Positions 4,773 to 29,081 are shown, counted from the first letter of the stretch. The stretch is 34,802 bases of DNA from Candidatus Altiarchaeales archaeon IMC4 (GCA_001742785.1 MCBF01000001.1:147335-182136); one strand, 5' to 3'. Numbers and translations are program-made. The notes: a model not told the origin generated them from the letters alone.

Positions 4773-4904
4773 GGCACCTGCCCAGAATTTGACAAAAAGG
4801 CAAATTCCTTTTCTTTTTCATCACACGCGTTTGCGAATTTTCGCAAACGGTGTCCCGAAACACTCTGTGTTTCGCGGAACATTTTTCTTTCCTAAAGAAA
4901 AAGG
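4773..4904 (-). repeat. Hairpin-rich palindromic element, copy A (minus orientation)
   Basis: Read on the minus strand: GGAAAGAAAAA..[GAAACAC aga GTGTTTC] GGGACACC [GTTTGCGA aaat TCGCAAAC] GCGTGTGA TG AAAAAGAAAAGG. On the plus strand there is also the hairpin TTTTTCTTT-cct-AAAGAAAAA (4882-4902) and an extra hairpin GAATTTG...CAAATTC (4785-4807) next to GGCACC. Confidence 0.7.
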
Positions 4905-8460: not shown

Positions 8461-8466
8461 GAATAG

Positions 8467-8589
8467 CCCTTTCTTTTTAAGAAAAAGAGAGGGTTATACT
8501 CGAAATTGCTGTGCAATTTCGGTACACCAAAACACTTTGTGTTTTGCGTGTCATCCCAAAGAAAAACAGGGCGGGTTGCGAAGCAACCC
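8467..8589 (+). repeat. Hairpin-rich palindromic element, copy B
   Basis: CCCTTTCTTTTT-aag-AAAAAGAGAGGG (8467-8493). HP1 GAAATTGC-tgt-GCAATTTC (8502-8520). GGTACACC. HP2 AAAACAC-ttt-GTGTTTT (8529-8545). GCGTGTCA TCCC AAAGAAAAA. HP3 GGGTTGC-gaa-GCAACCC (8573-8589). Confidence 0.8.
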
Positions 8590-8628
8590 ACCCGAATAAT
8601 ACGACAAACAAAATTCAAATACAAAAAG

Positions 8629-11600
8629 ATGGCGATAGTAAGGAAAAAGGTCAGGGAGATTGAATTTGCTCTGTTTTCACCAAAGCAGATAAGGGCATTG
8701 TCTGCGGGAAAAATATTCACGCCGGACACTTATGACGATGACGGCTACCCGATAGAGGGCGGCCTTATGGACCCGCATCTCGGGGTAATCGACCCGGGGA
8801 TAAGGTGCCGCACCTGCGGGGGGAGGCTCGGGGAATGCATGGGGCACTTCGGCCACATCGAGCTTACGCGGCCGGTTGTGCACGTCGGCTACGCAAAGGA
8901 GATATACAGCCTCCTGCGTGCAACCTGCAAGGGCTGCGGAAGGCTTCTTGTAACGGAAGATACGCTGCAGGGCTATGACGCGGCGAACCTGAACTCCGAA
9001 AAGTTTAACGAAATACTGGAGAAGGCCGAGAAGGTTTCGGATTCTTCGGGCAGGTGCCCTCACTGCGGGCAGCAGCAGCAGAAAATAAAGTTCGTCAGGC
9101 CGTATTCTTATCACGAGGGGGACGACACGCTTCTTGTGACCGACATACTGGAGCGCTTTGAAAAGATAAGCGAAGAAGACCTGATGTACGTCGGTTTCAA
9201 CACGAGGCCAGAGTGGATGATCATGAGCGCGATACCGGTCCTTCCGATAGTTACAAGGCCGTCGATAACCCTTGAGTCAAGCGACAGGAGCGAGGACGAC
9301 CTCACTCACAAACTCGTCGATATACTCAGGATAAACCAGCGCCTTGAGGAGAACATAAACTCCGGCGCGCCGCAGTTGATAATAGAGGACCTTTGGGACC
9401 TCCTTCAGTATCACGTTGCCACCTACTTTGACAACGGCATAACCGGCATCCCACCCGCAAGGCACCGCTCGGGCAGGCCGCTTAAGACCATAGCGCAAAG
9501 GCTTAAAGGCAAAGAGGGCAGGTTCAGGAACAACCTTTCAGGAAAGCGTGTTAACTTCTCGGCAAGAACTGTCATAAGCCCGGACCCGAACATAAGCATA
9601 AACGAGGTCGGGGTCCCGGAGGTCATAGCCGTCGAGCTCACCGTCCCGGAAGAGGCAAACAAGGATAACATAGATTCCCTGAAAGGGATGGTAAAAAACG
9701 GGCCCGGTAAGTTCCCGGGCGCACACAGCGTCATAAAAGAGGGCAAGCGGCGCAGGATCCTGGAGGAAACGAAGGACGAGGTCGCAGAAACCCTTGCAGT
9801 AGGGGACGTCGTCGAGCGCCACCTTTGCGACGGCGACATTGTCATATTCAACAGGCAGCCATCCTTGCACAGGATGTCGATGATGTGCCACACCGTAAGG
9901 GTTCTGCCGTATTCCACATTCAGGTTGAACACCGCAGTCTGCGCCCCGTATAACGCGGACTTCGACGGCGATGAGATGAACCTGCACGTCCCGCAGTCCG
10001 AGGAAGCCAAGGCCGAGGCGGAAATACTGATGAAGGTGCAGGAGAACATAATCTCCCCGCGGTTCGGTGAGCCCGTGATGGGCGGCCGCCACGACCACGT
10101 AACAGGGATGTACCTTCTTACCAAAGACGGCAGGATTTTAAGCCGCAGGGAAGCGCTCCAGCTGACCAGGAACATCGTGAACCTGCCGAAAAAGGACACG
10201 TACACCGGGAGGGATATATTTAGTGCGCTTCTGCCGAATGACCTGACTATGTCCTTTGAAGGAAAGATGGGCCCGGTGGTTATAGAAAAAGGGCAGGTCA
10301 AGTCCGGCGTTATAGCTGCAAAGGGCATGGCAGGAGAACTACTGAACGAGATATTCCTCAAGTACGGCTCGGACGCGGCAAGGCAGTACATCGACAAATC
10401 CACACGTCTTGCGATAAACTCATTCATGAAGTACGGTTTCTCAACCGGAATAGACGAAAACGACCTGAAAAAAGACGGAATAAAGGAGATCACGGATGTC
10501 CTTGATGCCGCGGAGAAGGAGGTCGACAAGCTGGTCGAACAGCACCACAAGAAAACCATGAAGGTCGTCCCCGGGAAAACATTGGACGAAAGCCTTGAGG
10601 ATTACGCCCTTATGACGCTTGGAAAAGCGAGAATGGACTCCGGAAAGATAGCCGCACGGCGCATCGGCGAGAACAGCGCGGTGATAATGGCAAAAGCGGG
10701 GGCCCGCGGAAGCCTTCTGAACCTTACCCAAATGGTCGGGTCGATCGGGCAGCAGGCGGTCAGGGGCAAGCGTATAAAGCGCGGCTACCACAACAGGACG
10801 CTGTCAAGTTTCAAGAAACACGATGTGAGCGCAAGGGCAAACGGTTTCGTCAGGTCAAGTTTCAAGAAGGGGCAGACCCCGCAGGAATACTTCTTCCACG
10901 CGATGGGCGGGAGGGAAAGCCTTGTGGATACTGCGATAAGGACGGGGCGCAGCGGTTATATGCAAAGGAGGCTCATAAACGCACTTCAGGACCTTAAGGT
11001 ATACCCCGACGAAACGGTTCGCGGGGACGGGAAGATATTGGTGCAATTCAGGTACGGGGAGGACGGAATAGACCCTGCGAAGACCGGATATATCAAAGGC
11101 GGCAGGAAGGATTACGAGAAGGCTAGGGTTGTCCCCGGAGAGGCCGTCGGAACCGTTGCTGCGCAGTCAATAGGTGAACCCGGGACACAGATGACCTTGA
11201 GGACGTTCCACTACGCGGGTGTCGTCGAGTTGAGCGTTCCGCTGGGTCTGCCGCGGCTTATAGAGATAATAGATGCCAAGCGCTCGCCGAGCAACCCGAT
11301 GATGACCATATACCTCGACAAGGAGCACATGCACGATGAAAAGAAGGCTTCCGAGCTTGCAGAAAAACTCGATGAGAAGTTCATGGAGGATGTCTGCGAA
11401 AGCACCGTCGACGCGAACAAAAAAGAGATCATAATAAAAACAAAGGACAAGGCGGCGCAGGAGGCCCTGAAGGAAATCTCCGAGGCAAGGGCGGCCAACA
11501 CGTTCGTCGTATCGGGGGAGTCGCTTCCTGAAATCAAAAGGACGCTTGGAAAGCTTATGAAGAAGAAGGTGTCCGGCGTAAAGGACATAAAAAGGACGTT

Positions 11601-18079: not shown

Positions 18080-18084
18080 TAACC

Positions 18085-18161
18085 TTTTTCTTTAGAAAAG
18101 AAAAATGTTAATGAAAAAGAAAAGGAATTCACCGAATTTCCGCAGAAATTCGCGTGAATTC
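18085..18161 (+). repeat. Hairpin-rich palindromic element, copy E (short form without HP1)
   Basis: TTTTTCTTT-aga-AAAGAAAAA (18085-18105). AAAAAGAAAAGG. Outer stem GAATTCAC (18125-18132) / GTGAATTC (18154-18161), enclosing C-[GAATTTC cgca GAAATTC]-GC. Confidence 0.7.
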
Positions 18162-28166: not shown

Positions 28167-28679
28167 ATGCAATACGTAAAAATTCCAAACGAGCGCATAG
28201 CAGTGCTTGTGGGGAAGAACGGCGCAACCAAGGAGAGTATAGAGAAAAAGACGAATACGAAGATATCGGTAACGGACACCTCGGTTTCGGTTGTGGGCGC
28301 GGCGATAGACGAGTGGGTCGCGAAGGATGTCGTTTTGGCGATAGGCCGCGGCTTCAGCCCGGAAAACGCGCTGCGCCTTCTGAAGGAAAACAACACCATC
28401 GAGATTCTGCGGATCGGCGACATTGCAAGGTCCAAAAATGACCTGGACAGGTTAAAGGGCCGGATAATCGGCGAGGGCGGCAAGACAAGAAAGACCATCG
28501 AGGAAATGACCGGCTGCTCTGTTTCTGTCTACGGGAAAACCGCCGCCATAATCGGCCTCGCAGACGATGTCTACACCGCGAAGGAGGCTATAGTGAAGCT
28601 CCTTGACGGTGCGCAGCATACCTCGGTCTACAAGTTCCTGGAAAAGAAGAGGGTGGAAGGAAAGCCCATGATTTTATAA
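28167..28679 (+). CDS. KH-domain RNA-binding protein (archaeal Dim2/Pno1-like)
   Basis: 170 aa with two KH-like segments (IAVLVGKNGATKESIEKKT / RIIGEGGKTRKTIEEMTG). Confidence 0.8.
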   Translation: MQYVKIPNERIAVLVGKNGATKESIEKKTNTKISVTDTSVSVVGAAIDEWVAKDVVLAIGRGFSPENALRLLKENNTIEILRIGDIARSKNDLDRLKGRIIGEGGKTRKTIEEMTGCSVSVYGKTAAIIGLADDVYTAKEAIVKLLDGAQHTSVYKFLEKKRVEGKPMIL

Positions 28680-28683
28680 ATAG

Positions 28684-28843
28684 CCCTTTTCTTTCCCGCG
28701 TAATTGCGGCGGCAATTACGGGGCACCATAATCGTGTTCGATTATGCGTGTCCAAAAGAAAAGTGCTATCCTCGTGAATCGGAGATTCACGGGACACCAT
28801 TTTCGATAAAATCGAAAATGCTTGTCATCCCAAAAGAAAAGGG
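28684..28843 (+). repeat. Hairpin-rich palindromic element, tandem double copy D1+D2 bounded by 11-bp inverted termini
   Basis: Termini: CCCTTTTCTTT (28684-28694) / AAAGAAAAGGG (28833-28843). D1: [CGTAATTGC ggcg GCAATTACG] GGGCACC [ATAATCG tgtt CGATTAT] GCGTGTCC AAAAGAAAAG. D2: [CGTGAATC gga GATTCACG] GGACACC [ATTTTCGAT aaa ATCGAAAAT] GCTTGTCA TCCC AAAAGAAAAGGG. Confidence 0.8.
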
Positions 28844-28871
28844 ATGTGCCTTATAAGACAACAAAAATAAG

Positions 28872-29081
28872 ATGTGCCTTGCGATACCCGGAAAAATTCT
28901 TGAGGCGGATGGCCCGGAGGGCATCGTCGATTTCGGCGGGACCAAACGAAAAGTCAGGCTTGACTTAGTTGATGCGGGGGTCGGCGATTACGTCATAGTA
29001 CACGTCGGCTACGCGATAGAGATTATGGATGAAAAAGAGGCAAAAGAGACGCTAAAATACTGGAGTGAACACCTTCTGTAA
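28872..29081 (+). CDS. hypC: Hydrogenase maturation chaperone HypC/HupF
   Basis: 69 aa with the invariant N-terminal MCLAIPGKI. Confidence 0.92.
   Translation: MCLAIPGKILEADGPEGIVDFGGTKRKVRLDLVDAGVGDYVIVHVGYAIEIMDEKEAKETLKYWSEHLL

What the first reader, a model, noticed from the sequence alone, without database searches (positions are those of the whole stretch)
28680..28871. Tandem double unit of the element bounded by perfect 11-bp inverted termini, upstream of hypC
Directly after the stop of the KH-protein gene lie two complete HP1-linker-HP2-GCGTGTC units (28699-28763 and 28773-28843). The pair is enclosed by CCCTTTTCTTT (28684-28694) and its exact reverse complement AAAGAAAAGGG (28833-28843).

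Terminal inverted repeats around internally structured units are MITE-like. The left flank (TAA-ATAGCCCTTTTCTTT) closely resembles the left flank of copy B (TAA-GAATAGCCCTTTCTTTTT). Both start right after a stop codon, which suggests either a shared insertion-site preference or a terminator-like role for the T-rich arm.
Basis: seen in the sequence. Interest (0 to 1): 0.6.

Follow-up and report, generated by a model that had tools for sequence, protein, structure and literature searches.

The report
Hairpin repeats nested in triplex-type cassette
The spacer between the KH-protein gene and hypC is not a small transposon with inverted ends: it is a conserved three-armed, triplex-type "gene-end" cassette, found across these subsurface archaea, into which two copies of a selfish double-hairpin repeat have been inserted.

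Summary
Two double-hairpin units and a perfect 11-nt inverted repeat (28684-28694 / 28833-28843) lie between the KH gene stop and hypC.

The 11-mers are not ends of a MITE. They are arm 1 (CCCTTTTCTTT) and arm 3 (AAAAGAAAAGG) of a separate cassette of about 75 nt: (stop)AAATAG-CCCTTTTCTTTT-cc-AAAAGAAAAGTGCTAT-CAT-CCCAAAAGAAAAGG-...TTATAAGACAA..ATG.

This cassette occurs without any hairpin unit at five or more loci of this genome. Its hairpin core is present in 47 of 49 genomes of the order, often 0-9 nt after tRNA genes, and in Iainarchaeum and Micrarchaeota MAGs.

Arm 2 is the Watson-Crick partner of arm 1. Arm 3 is always the mirror image of arm 2 (24/24 asymmetric copies, then about 14 of 15 more). 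That is the signature of an intrastrand triplex motif, as in bacterial PIT/TM_ECO elements, not of terminal inverted repeats.

In this locus two 56-nt hairpin-pair units sit in the arm1/arm2 loop (28695-28750) and in the arm2/arm3 linker (28770-28825). They belong to a family with at least 150 copies here and 0-9 in relatives. Filled/empty paralogue pairs show no fixed target duplication. An IS200-type TnpA exists, but nothing links it to the units.

Terminator and triplex functions are inferred, not shown.

The parts
28677..28683 (+). Stop codon TAA of the KH-domain gene (28677-28679), then ATAG, the conserved left edge of the cassette. At other loci the TAG of ATAG is itself the stop codon.
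28684..28694 (+). Arm 1 (T-arm, polypyrimidine CCCTTTTCTTT). Putative oligo-T termination signal of the KH gene, and Watson-Crick partner of arm 2.
28695..28750 (+). Hairpin-pair unit 1, a 56-nt insert in the arm1/arm2 loop: foot CCCG, HPa 28699-28720, spacer GGGCAC 28721-28726, HPb 28727-28746, CGTG.
   Evidence: (CM hit at genome 176030-176087, 61.4 bits)
28751..28769 (+). TCC (remnant of the original loop) followed by arm 2 (A1, AAAAGAAAAGTGCTAT). It pairs 14/15 with 28680-28694.
   Evidence: (I2)
28770..28825 (+). Hairpin-pair unit 2, a 56-nt insert in the arm2/arm3 linker (1-nt boundary ambiguity): CCT, HPa 28773-28791, GGACAC 28792-28797, HPb 28798-28820, CTTGT.
   Evidence: (CM hit at genome 176104-176161, 64.3 bits)
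28826..28843 (+). Linker remnant CATCCC, then arm 3 (A2, AAAAGAAAAGGG).
28851..28871 (+). TTATAAGACAA box plus CAAAAATAAG, the conserved right part of the cassette. In 7 of 9 TTATAAGACAA-bearing cassette copies scanned it ends 4-12 nt before the ATG of the downstream gene (here hypC, ATG at 28872).
28872..29081 (+). hypC (MCLAIPG...), the downstream gene.

Best explanation
The 192-nt KH-hypC spacer is a nested composite of two unrelated repeat families.

(1) The scaffold is a three-arm polypyrimidine/polypurine cassette: arm 1 CCCTTTTCTTT(T), arm 2 AAAAGAAAAGKGCTAT (Watson-Crick complement of arm 1), arm 3 CCCAAAAGAAAAGG (mirror image of arm 2), then a TTATAAGACAA box close to the next start codon. 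The cassette is old and widespread in Altiarchaeales and some DPANN-type archaea. There it typically starts a few nucleotides after the 3' end of tRNA genes. In this genome it also follows protein-gene stops.

I infer that arm 1 is the oligo-T termination signal of the upstream gene. I also infer that the three arms can fold into a hairpin plus third strand. That would be an intrastrand triplex: A.A-T/G.G-C on the coding strand, or T.A-T/C+.G-C on the other strand, acting as a gene-end insulator.

(2) Two 56-nt double-hairpin units have been inserted into the two single-stranded parts of that fold: the arm1/arm2 loop and the arm2/arm3 linker. All three arms are left intact. The units belong to a strand-symmetric DNA palindrome family with the anatomy [YCC-N-hairpin-GGR][CAC-hairpin-(C)GTG]. 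The family is hugely expanded in this genome. It behaves as selfish DNA, inserting into spacers, into other units and in frame into genes, without a fixed target duplication.

Shown: the anatomy, the nesting, the copy numbers, the mirror rule, the positions relative to genes, and the filled/empty pairs.

Inferred: termination, triplex formation and the mechanism of spread.
For: Empty cassettes with the same arms and linkers lie at genome 1137629+, 540203-, 1273729+ and 806860-, and at 675045- with a unit at a third site. Our locus differs from them only by two 56-nt blocks.

The minimum-free-energy fold pairs arm 1 with arm 2.

Units are an independent family:
- There are 281 arrays of two or more hairpins.
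- There are 959 perfect hairpins with stems of at least 8 bp, against about 120 expected.
- There are at least 150 covariance-model hits in this genome against 0-9 in 48 other genomes of the order.

Nesting is directly visible. Locus 1063074- is our unit 2 plus a further unit inside it. Locus 798023- is our unit 1 with a 104-nt insert. Loci a232, a86 and a124 show successive insertions into spacers.

In-frame 51-, 54-, 54- and 57-nt inserts occur in tnpA paralogues.

Stems are strand-symmetric: 2394 Watson-Crick pairs, 27 G.T and 25 A.C.

The cassette is ancient:
- The same sequence, including GTGCTATCATCCCAAAAGAAA, is found in another Altiarchaeota MAG, an Iainarchaeum MAG and Micrarchaeota MAGs.
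- The hairpin core is in 47 of 49 genomes of the order, 1-70 copies each, against 0-8 for the reversed control.

Mirror rule: arm 3 has arm 1's run pattern (x,y) while arm 2 has (y,x). This holds in 14/14 asymmetric cassettes here, 10/10 in the first set of other genomes, and about 14 of 15 in 25 further genomes. The last set includes two-C patterns such as (5,3,2)/(2,3,5)/(5,3,2).

Position:
- TTTTCTTT is about 18 times denser in the first 20 nt after co-directional stops than in coding sequence.
- 13 of 30 cassettes from other genomes start 0-9 nt after a co-directional tRNA gene.
- A cassette follows tRNA-Ser in this genome.

Ten of about 24 cassettes in this genome carry one or two units in the linker. 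The 40 cassettes detected at other-genome loci have short loops and linkers; that scan only accepted short ones.
Against: - Termination at arm 1 is therefore untested.
- Triplex formation is inferred from sequence symmetry only.
- The GC flanks of arm 3 (5' CCC, 3' GG) do not extend the triplets.
- With units inserted, the loop and linker are 59 and 69 nt. That is far longer than in described intrastrand triplex motifs.
- The (5,3)-type cassette at window 4806-4904 sits in a divergent promoter region with no upstream gene to terminate.
- TTATAAG lies only 13-21 nt before the ATG, too close for a canonical archaeal TATA box of a leaderless mRNA.
- No sister species exists in the databases, so an orthologous empty site could not be examined.
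- The same units recur in the same cassette sites at 3-6 loci. The composite may therefore have been copied as a block rather than assembled in place.
Confidence: 0.72

Rival explanations
1. One reading: one MITE-like non-autonomous transposon. Its 11-bp terminal inverted repeats are 28684-28694 and 28833-28843. It carries two structured units and is moved by a transposase that recognises the ends.
For: The perfect 11/11 inverted repeat. The arms recur at other copies. Composites of cassette plus the same unit recur at 3-6 loci, so the block may be copied as a whole. The literature reports a very high MITE density in Ca. Altiarchaeum hamiconexum (PMC11602168).
Against: The arms occur without units, and units occur without arms. 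Arm 3 mirrors arm 2 in every asymmetric copy, where a terminal inverted repeat would have to be the reverse complement of arm 1. The cassette is the normal tRNA trailer in related genomes. No fixed target duplication was found. No transposase gene was found bounded by these arms.
Confidence: 0.06
2. A structured cis-regulatory RNA, either a 3' UTR of the KH gene or a leader of hypC. Its hairpins act at the RNA level, for example in stability, processing or attenuation of the hyp operon.
For: Very stable predicted fold (z = -9.6 as RNA). Stems vary between copies while pairing is kept. The location is between two co-directional genes.
Against: No Rfam family matches. Units occur in both orientations, in divergent promoter regions, inside other units and in frame inside genes. 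G.T pairs are no more frequent than A.C (27 vs 25 among 2496 stem positions), as expected for double-strand palindromes rather than one transcribed strand. The covariation count is partly circular, because units were selected as hairpins.
Confidence: 0.08
3. The hairpin pairs are REP/BIME- or PATE-like elements mobilised by the genome's Y1 (HUH) transposase through single-stranded hairpin recognition. The cassette is merely a preferred target.
For: One intact and at least six decayed Y1_Tnp genes. The hairpin-plus-conserved-foot anatomy resembles REP. Insertion is often immediately 5' of TCC without duplication, and the foot is complementary to the internal spacer (TCC/GGA, CCC/GGG, AGC/GCT). 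This recalls guide-sequence pairing in IS608.
Against: The protein scores as IS200/IS605 TnpA (132 bits) and falls below the RAYT cut-off (40.9 < 80). Its own end hairpins, CTGCGGGC-ttta-GCCCGCAG and ACCGCCGAC-ttta-GTCGGCGGT, are GC-rich and unrelated to the units. The tnpA copies are victims of unit insertion. Junction overlaps vary from 0 to 8 nt.
Confidence: 0.14

Closest known systems
PIT elements / BoxC / TM_ECO intrastrand triplex motifs of enterobacteria and cyanobacteria (Holder et al. 2015, PMC4666352)
   Same: Three consecutive blocks on one strand: a pyrimidine block, a purine block complementary to it, then a second purine block. They are intergenic, multi-copy and conserved across genera, often with nearby sequence instability.
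   Different: The cassette here is A/T-rich (TTTTCTTTT) rather than G/C-rich, and archaeal. It is tied to gene ends: it follows tRNA 3' ends and stop codons, whereas PIT elements showed no terminator activity. In this locus the loop and linker are 59 and 69 nt because of inserted units. No biophysical proof is available.
Rickettsia palindromic elements (RPE)
   Same: Short, self-folding selfish repeats found in spacers and, in frame, inside protein genes. The mobilising enzyme is unknown.
   Different: The units are 51-57 nt with two independent hairpins and conserved 6-nt spacers. Stems are highly variable. Units chain and nest in one another. The host is archaeal. No sequence relationship is expected.
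REP/BIME and REPIN elements with RAYT transposases
   Same: Arrays of short hairpins in alternating context with conserved foot sequences. Hundreds of copies, mostly extragenic.
   Different: No RAYT is present: the Y1 protein is an IS200 TnpA by NCBIfam. Hairpin sequences are not conserved. Copies occur inside genes. The two hairpins of a unit are unrelated, not inverted copies of each other.
Archaeal factor-independent terminators (oligo-T tracts after genes and tRNAs; established knowledge)
   Same: A T4-C-T3/4 tract begins 1-10 nt after the stop codon or tRNA 3' end.
   Different: Ordinary terminators conserve composition only. Here about 50 nt, including two purine arms, is conserved across phyla.
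MITEs (TIR-bounded non-autonomous DDE elements)
   Same: Small, multi-copy, intergenic, with an inverted repeat at the borders of this particular copy.
   Different: The inverted repeat is not maintained in the family (mirror rule). There is no fixed target duplication and no cognate transposase.

Membership tests
MITE | Terminal inverted repeats that delimit the mobilised unit in all copies | tested here: not met
   The arms occur with nothing between them except a 2-4 nt loop. Arm 3 mirrors arm 2 rather than complementing arm 1 in 24/24 and then about 14/15 asymmetric copies.
MITE | Target-site duplication of fixed length | tested here: not met
   In 19 filled/empty paralogue pairs the junction overlap is 0 nt (5 pairs), 1 (4), 2 (2), 4 (6), 7 (1) or 8 (1). 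Both inserts in this locus have 0-1 nt.
MITE | Cognate autonomous IS sharing the ends | tested here: inconclusive
   Only an IS200-type element was found, and its ends are different. No systematic search for DDE transposases was made.
REP/BIME-RAYT | A RAYT-class Y1 transposase | tested here: not met
   NF033573 transpos_IS200 scores 132.4 bits (cut-off 55). NF047646 REP_Tyr_transpos scores 40.9 bits (cut-off 80). The gene is multi-copy and decaying.
IS200/IS605-derived PATE | Ends resemble the LE/RE hairpins of the resident IS | tested here: not met
   The IS hairpins are CTGCGGGC/GCCCGCAG and ACCGCCGAC/GTCGGCGGT, against AT-rich variable stems with GGACAC spacers in the units. No TnpB is present.
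IS200/IS605-derived PATE | Insertion next to a fixed tetra- or pentanucleotide without duplication | tested here: inconclusive
   Many inserts lie immediately 5' of TCC(N), but several do not (a70, a200, a213).
RPE-like selfish palindromes | Short palindromic repeats in spacers and in frame within protein genes | tested here: met
   Inserts of 51, 54, 54 and 57 nt in tnpA paralogues keep the frame. About 122 arrays are intergenic and about 110 lie inside crude ORFs.
Intrastrand triplex motif (PIT/TM class) | Block 2 is the Watson-Crick complement of block 1 | tested here: met
   28680-28694 pairs with 28755-28769 at 14/15. This holds family-wide.
Intrastrand triplex motif (PIT/TM class) | Block 3 is the mirror of block 2, giving A.A-T and G.G-C triplets in register | tested here: met
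   In this copy the core is symmetric: arm 1 is (4,3), arm 2 (4,4), arm 3 (4,4). The family shows triple covariation over the patterns (6,4), (5,3), (3,4), (4,5), (3,5), (4,3) and (5,3,2). One doubtful case: L133.
Intrastrand triplex motif (PIT/TM class) | Short loops (1-6 nt in the ITxF definition, PMC4666352) | tested here: not met
   Here the arm-to-arm distances are 59 and 69 nt because of the two inserts. Empty copies have loops of 2-9 nt and linkers of 8-13 nt.
Intrastrand triplex motif (PIT/TM class) | Physical formation of a triple helix | not testable with these tools
   Needs CD/UV melting, NMR or DMS/S1 probing.
Archaeal oligo-T terminator | T-rich tract directly downstream of the gene | tested here: met
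   TTTTCTTT starts 8 nt after the TAA. The motif occurs 19 times in the 21 nt after stops against 2 per 40 nt upstream. It follows tRNA 3' ends in 13 of 30 foreign loci.
Archaeal oligo-T terminator | RNA 3' ends map to the tract | not testable with these tools

The most novel reading that the evidence does not exclude
The three-arm cassette is a conserved, sequence-encoded DNA (or antisense-RNA) triple helix that Altiarchaeales and several DPANN lineages use as a factor-independent, bidirectional gene-end insulator after tRNA and protein genes. Its triple covariation (arm 1 / complement / mirror) would be the first comparative-genomic proof of a functional intrastrand triplex. The double-hairpin selfish repeats survive by landing precisely in its loop and linker, where a self-folding insert leaves the three arms free to assemble.
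Probability: 0.3. Interest if true: 0.8.

Novelty: new variant of a known kind. Interest (0 to 1): 0.6.

Why it matters
Intrastrand triplex motifs (PIT/BoxC/TM_ECO) have been known in bacteria for decades without a function. Here an A/T-rich archaeal counterpart shows coordinated changes in all three arms across dozens of genomes and several phyla. It also has a fixed position at tRNA and gene 3' ends. This makes the questions "do such triplexes form, and what are they for?" directly testable with a 50-nt oligonucleotide and a termination assay.

The locus also shows how a second, lineage-specific selfish repeat colonises the unpaired parts of a structured element. It explains why assemblies of this organism break in such spacers. 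It also corrects a tempting but wrong MITE annotation.

Tried and rejected
- An Rfam scan of the window at gathering thresholds gave 0 hits.
- Orthologous empty site. Genomes of the order share no synteny; the best KH protein is 63% identical. JGI metagenomes reach at most 56%. The 5.8-billion-protein search found nothing between 64 and 100% identity. Same-population assemblies carry the identical spacer or break inside it. Insertion polymorphism at this locus could therefore not be tested.
- TnpB/IS605 link: no PF07282 in the genome.
- TnpA link: the IS end hairpins are unrelated to the units.
- Fixed target duplication: rejected.
- The 'TTTGAAA..TTTCAAA-GCCA-TGA..TCA' pair first looked like an IS end. 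It is another hairpin-pair subfamily that also inserts in frame.
- TTATAAG as the hypC TATA box: the spacing to the ATG (13-21 nt) is too short for a canonical archaeal promoter. Left open.
- Arm 1/arm 3 alternative Watson-Crick pairing (a riboswitch-like switch): disfavoured, because in asymmetric copies arm 3 is not the best complement of arm 1.
- The covariation test on alignment A2 is partly circular, because units were chosen as perfect hairpins. I relied instead on the spacer-anchored count.

Full report
**1. Observation**

The sequence is as described. The KH-domain gene ends with TAA at 28677-28679. ATAG-CCCTTTTCTTT follows at 28680-28694. Two hairpin-pair units come next, and AAAGAAAAGGG lies at 28833-28843. 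The two 11-mers are perfectly complementary (I4).

The 11-mer with at most one mismatch is over-represented in the window: 11 copies against 2.2 expected, with 0 of 100 shuffles reaching 11. It is also over-represented in the genome: 183 copies against about 21 expected.

That pairing encloses unit 1 only. The minimum-free-energy folds use this pairing, not the 11-mer pairing (z = -10.9 and -9.6).

**2. Genome context**

The window is part of a 1.39-Mb single-scaffold archaeal genome. Identical proteins occur in groundwater assemblies. It is the only member of its family among the species representatives held.

**3. The hairpin-pair units are an independent, hugely expanded family**

- The genome has 959 perfect hairpins (stem at least 8 bp, loop 3-8 nt), against about 120 in Markov simulations.
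- It has 281 arrays of two or more adjacent hairpins.
- Adjacent hairpins are separated by a small set of spacers: GGACAC/GTGTCC, GGACAT, CTTGTCC, GGATAC and others.
- A covariance model built from 54 units finds at least 150 copies here (the scoring cap). It finds 0-9 in each of 48 other genomes of the order, and 12 of 49 have any. Related units in other genera have the same design.

The unit anatomy is [YCC-N-hairpin a-GGR][CAC-hairpin b-(C)GTG]. The three bases left of hairpin a covary with the spacer (TCC/GGA, CCC/GGG, AGC/GCT), and the spacer covaries with the right flank (GGACAC/CTTGT, GGATAC/CTTAT). Both hairpins therefore have extended feet that belong to the unit.

I also detected units from the spacers alone, which avoids selecting for hairpins. 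The stems then hold 2394 Watson-Crick pairs, 27 G.T, 25 A.C and 50 other combinations. This symmetry is expected of double-stranded palindromes, not of an RNA selected on one strand.

**4. The units behave as insertions**

Nineteen paralogous filled/empty pairs were found.

- Inserts are 47-56 nt, or about 104, 160 and 171 nt where units are nested inside the spacers of older units (a232, a86 and a124).
- Junction overlaps are 0 nt (5 pairs), 1 (4), 2 (2), 4 (6), 7 (1) and 8 (1). There is no fixed target duplication.
- Several inserts lie immediately 5' of TCC.
- Four inserts of 51, 54, 54 and 57 nt sit in frame in decayed copies of an IS200 transposase gene.

**5. The 11-nt 'termini' belong to a different element**

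Scanning for ATAGCCCTTTTCTTT shows a recurrent cassette:

(stop)AAATAG-CCCTTTTCTTTT-cc-AAAAGAAAAGTGCTAT-CAT-CCCAAAAGAAAAGG-ATATACN-TTATAAGACAATAAAAA-ATG

It occurs with no hairpin unit at genome 1137629+, 540203-, 1273729+ and 806860-.

Our locus is this cassette plus two 56-nt blocks:

- 28695-28750 lies between CCCTTTTCTTT and TCCAAAAG, that is, in the loop.
- 28770-28825 lies between GTGCTAT and CATCCC, that is, in the linker.

Other copies carry units at these sites or after arm 3 (675045-, 1027919-, 1063074-, 933449-).

Locus 1063074- has our unit 2 with an extra unit nested in it. Locus 798023- has our unit 1 split by a 104-nt insert. Ten of about 24 cassettes in this genome have one or two units in the linker.

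**6. The cassette is old and widespread**

An exact-pattern scan of 185,579 species genomes found the same sequence, including GTGCTATCATCCCAAAAGAAA, in another Altiarchaeota MAG (six loci), in an Iainarchaeum MAG (on a 347-kb contig) and in three Micrarchaeota MAGs.

The hairpin core TTTCTTT-N1-12-AAAGAAA is present in 47 of 49 genomes of the order. Counts are 1-70 per genome, against 0-8 for the reversed control.

**7. Mirror rule**

Write arm 1 as x T's, a C, then y T's. Arm 2 then has the pattern (y,x), as a Watson-Crick partner must. Arm 3 always has (x,y).

- 14/14 asymmetric cassettes in this genome obey.
- 10/10 in the first foreign loci obey.
- About 14 of 15 in 25 further genomes obey. 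These include two-C patterns such as arm 1 (5,3,2), arm 2 (2,3,5), arm 3 (5,3,2). One case, L133, is doubtful.

Arm 3 is therefore the mirror image of arm 2. A direct repeat or a terminal inverted repeat would give (y,x).

Mirror repeats of homopurine tracts are the defining feature of triplex-forming DNA. A block order of pyrimidine, purine, mirror-purine is that of the bacterial intrastrand triplex motifs PIT/BoxC/TM_ECO (PMC4666352).

On the coding strand the triplets would be T-A.A and C-G.G. On the other strand they would be T.A-T and C+.G-C.

The perfect arm 1/arm 3 inverted repeat in this locus exists only because the core TTTTCTTT is itself mirror-symmetric and arm 3 happens to be followed by GGG.

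After I had derived this, a look-up showed that other agents of this scan had described fold-back triplex hairpins next to tRNA exons in DPANN genomes. I treat that as agreement, not as evidence.

**8. Position and likely function**

Arm 1 begins within 17 nt of the stop of a co-directional upstream ORF. Sometimes the TAG of ATAG is the stop itself.

TTTTCTTT occurs 19 times in the first 21 nt after stops of ORFs of at least 120 aa, against 2 per 40 nt just upstream.

In other genomes, 13 of 30 cassettes start 0-9 nt after the 3' end of a co-directional tRNA gene. In this genome a variant follows tRNA-Ser.

Archaeal RNA polymerase terminates at oligo-T tracts (established knowledge). Arm 1 is therefore well placed to be the terminator of the KH gene.

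The right part of the cassette, TTATAAGACAA, ends 4-12 nt before the start codon in 7 of 9 TTATAAGACAA-bearing cassette copies scanned, including hypC. The cassette thus acts as, or has been co-opted as, a terminator-to-start-codon spacer. TTATAAG is too close to the ATG for a canonical TATA box, and I leave its role open.

One cassette in the window (4806-4904, minus strand) lies between divergent genes and cannot terminate an upstream gene.

**9. Transposase**

Pfam Y1_Tnp matches one intact gene (genome 20628-21107) and at least six decayed copies.

The protein is an IS200/IS605 TnpA (132 bits) and falls below the RAYT cut-off. No TnpB is present.

The element's own end hairpins are GC-rich and unlike the units. 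The decayed copies are themselves riddled with units. A hairpin-recognising HUH enzyme therefore exists, but nothing links it to the units.

**10. Verdict**

The MITE interpretation is not.

The region is a triplex-type gene-end cassette with two nested selfish hairpin pairs. The anatomy, nesting, distribution and mirror rule are shown. Termination, triplex formation and the mechanism of spread are inferred.

Limits:
- There is no sister species for an orthologous empty site.
- My gene calls are crude ORF calls.

A literature search found no description of these elements in Altiarchaeota, apart from a high automated MITE count in Ca. Altiarchaeum hamiconexum (PMC11602168).

Noticed in passing
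window 28843-28852 and 28871-28880: A 10-nt direct repeat GATGTGCCTT: the base before the hypC ATG plus its first 9 nt recur 28 nt upstream, just after arm 3. Canonical cassettes have ATATACCTT at that place (7/9 identical). Two A-to-G changes plus one extra base would create the repeat. Chance, gene conversion or an insertion footprint cannot be told apart.
   Followed up: partly
window 28851-28871, and genome 3655, 540145, 674935, 966310, 1137687, 525021, 492696: The box TTATAAGACAA(T/C)AAAA(A) ends 4-12 nt before the ATG of at least nine genes, in two spacing classes (4-6 and 10-12 nt). This is too close to be a standard archaeal TATA box for a leaderless mRNA.
   Followed up: partly
genome 20422-21144 (outside the window): An intact IS200-type element: LE hairpin CTGCGGGC-ttta-GCCCGCAG, a tnpA gene whose product scores as IS200/IS605 TnpA (HUH = HFH, catalytic Y present), and RE hairpin ACCGCCGAC-ttta-GTCGGCGGT. 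There are at least six decayed tnpA copies (for example 50063-50362, 1341159-1341565, 1261050-1261226). They carry in-frame hairpin-pair insertions.
   Followed up: yes
genome 48731, 210115, 1033238, 50534, 20512 and about 15 more: A second hairpin-pair subfamily, AT-TTTGAAAnnn..nnnTTTCAAA-GCCA-TGnnAnnn..nnnTnnCA-ATG. It also inserts as about 52-54 nt blocks, once in frame in tnpA.
   Followed up: partly
genome-wide: Unit lengths peak at 54 and 57 nt. 58 of 106 units are multiples of three, where one third is expected. This may reflect selection for frame-neutral insertion, or just the stem and loop sizes of the dominant subfamilies.
   Followed up: no
L030, L031, L032, L034, L035 (other assemblies of the same population): Four of five independent contigs end inside this spacer, at unit 1 or unit 2. 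The repeats fragment short-read assemblies of this organism.
   Followed up: yes
window 8463-8630, 4806-4904 (minus strand), 18083-18126: Three more cassettes in the window, of the asymmetric types (3,5) and (5,3). Two have a unit in the linker and one is empty. All obey the mirror rule. The 4806-4904 copy lies between divergent genes.
   Followed up: partly
genome 511907-512148: Two tandem (5,3)-type cassettes lie directly upstream of tRNA-Met, separated by tRNA-like sequence (GGTTCAAATCC... follows). This possibly relates to notes from other genomes that such cassettes flank tRNA exons.
   Followed up: no
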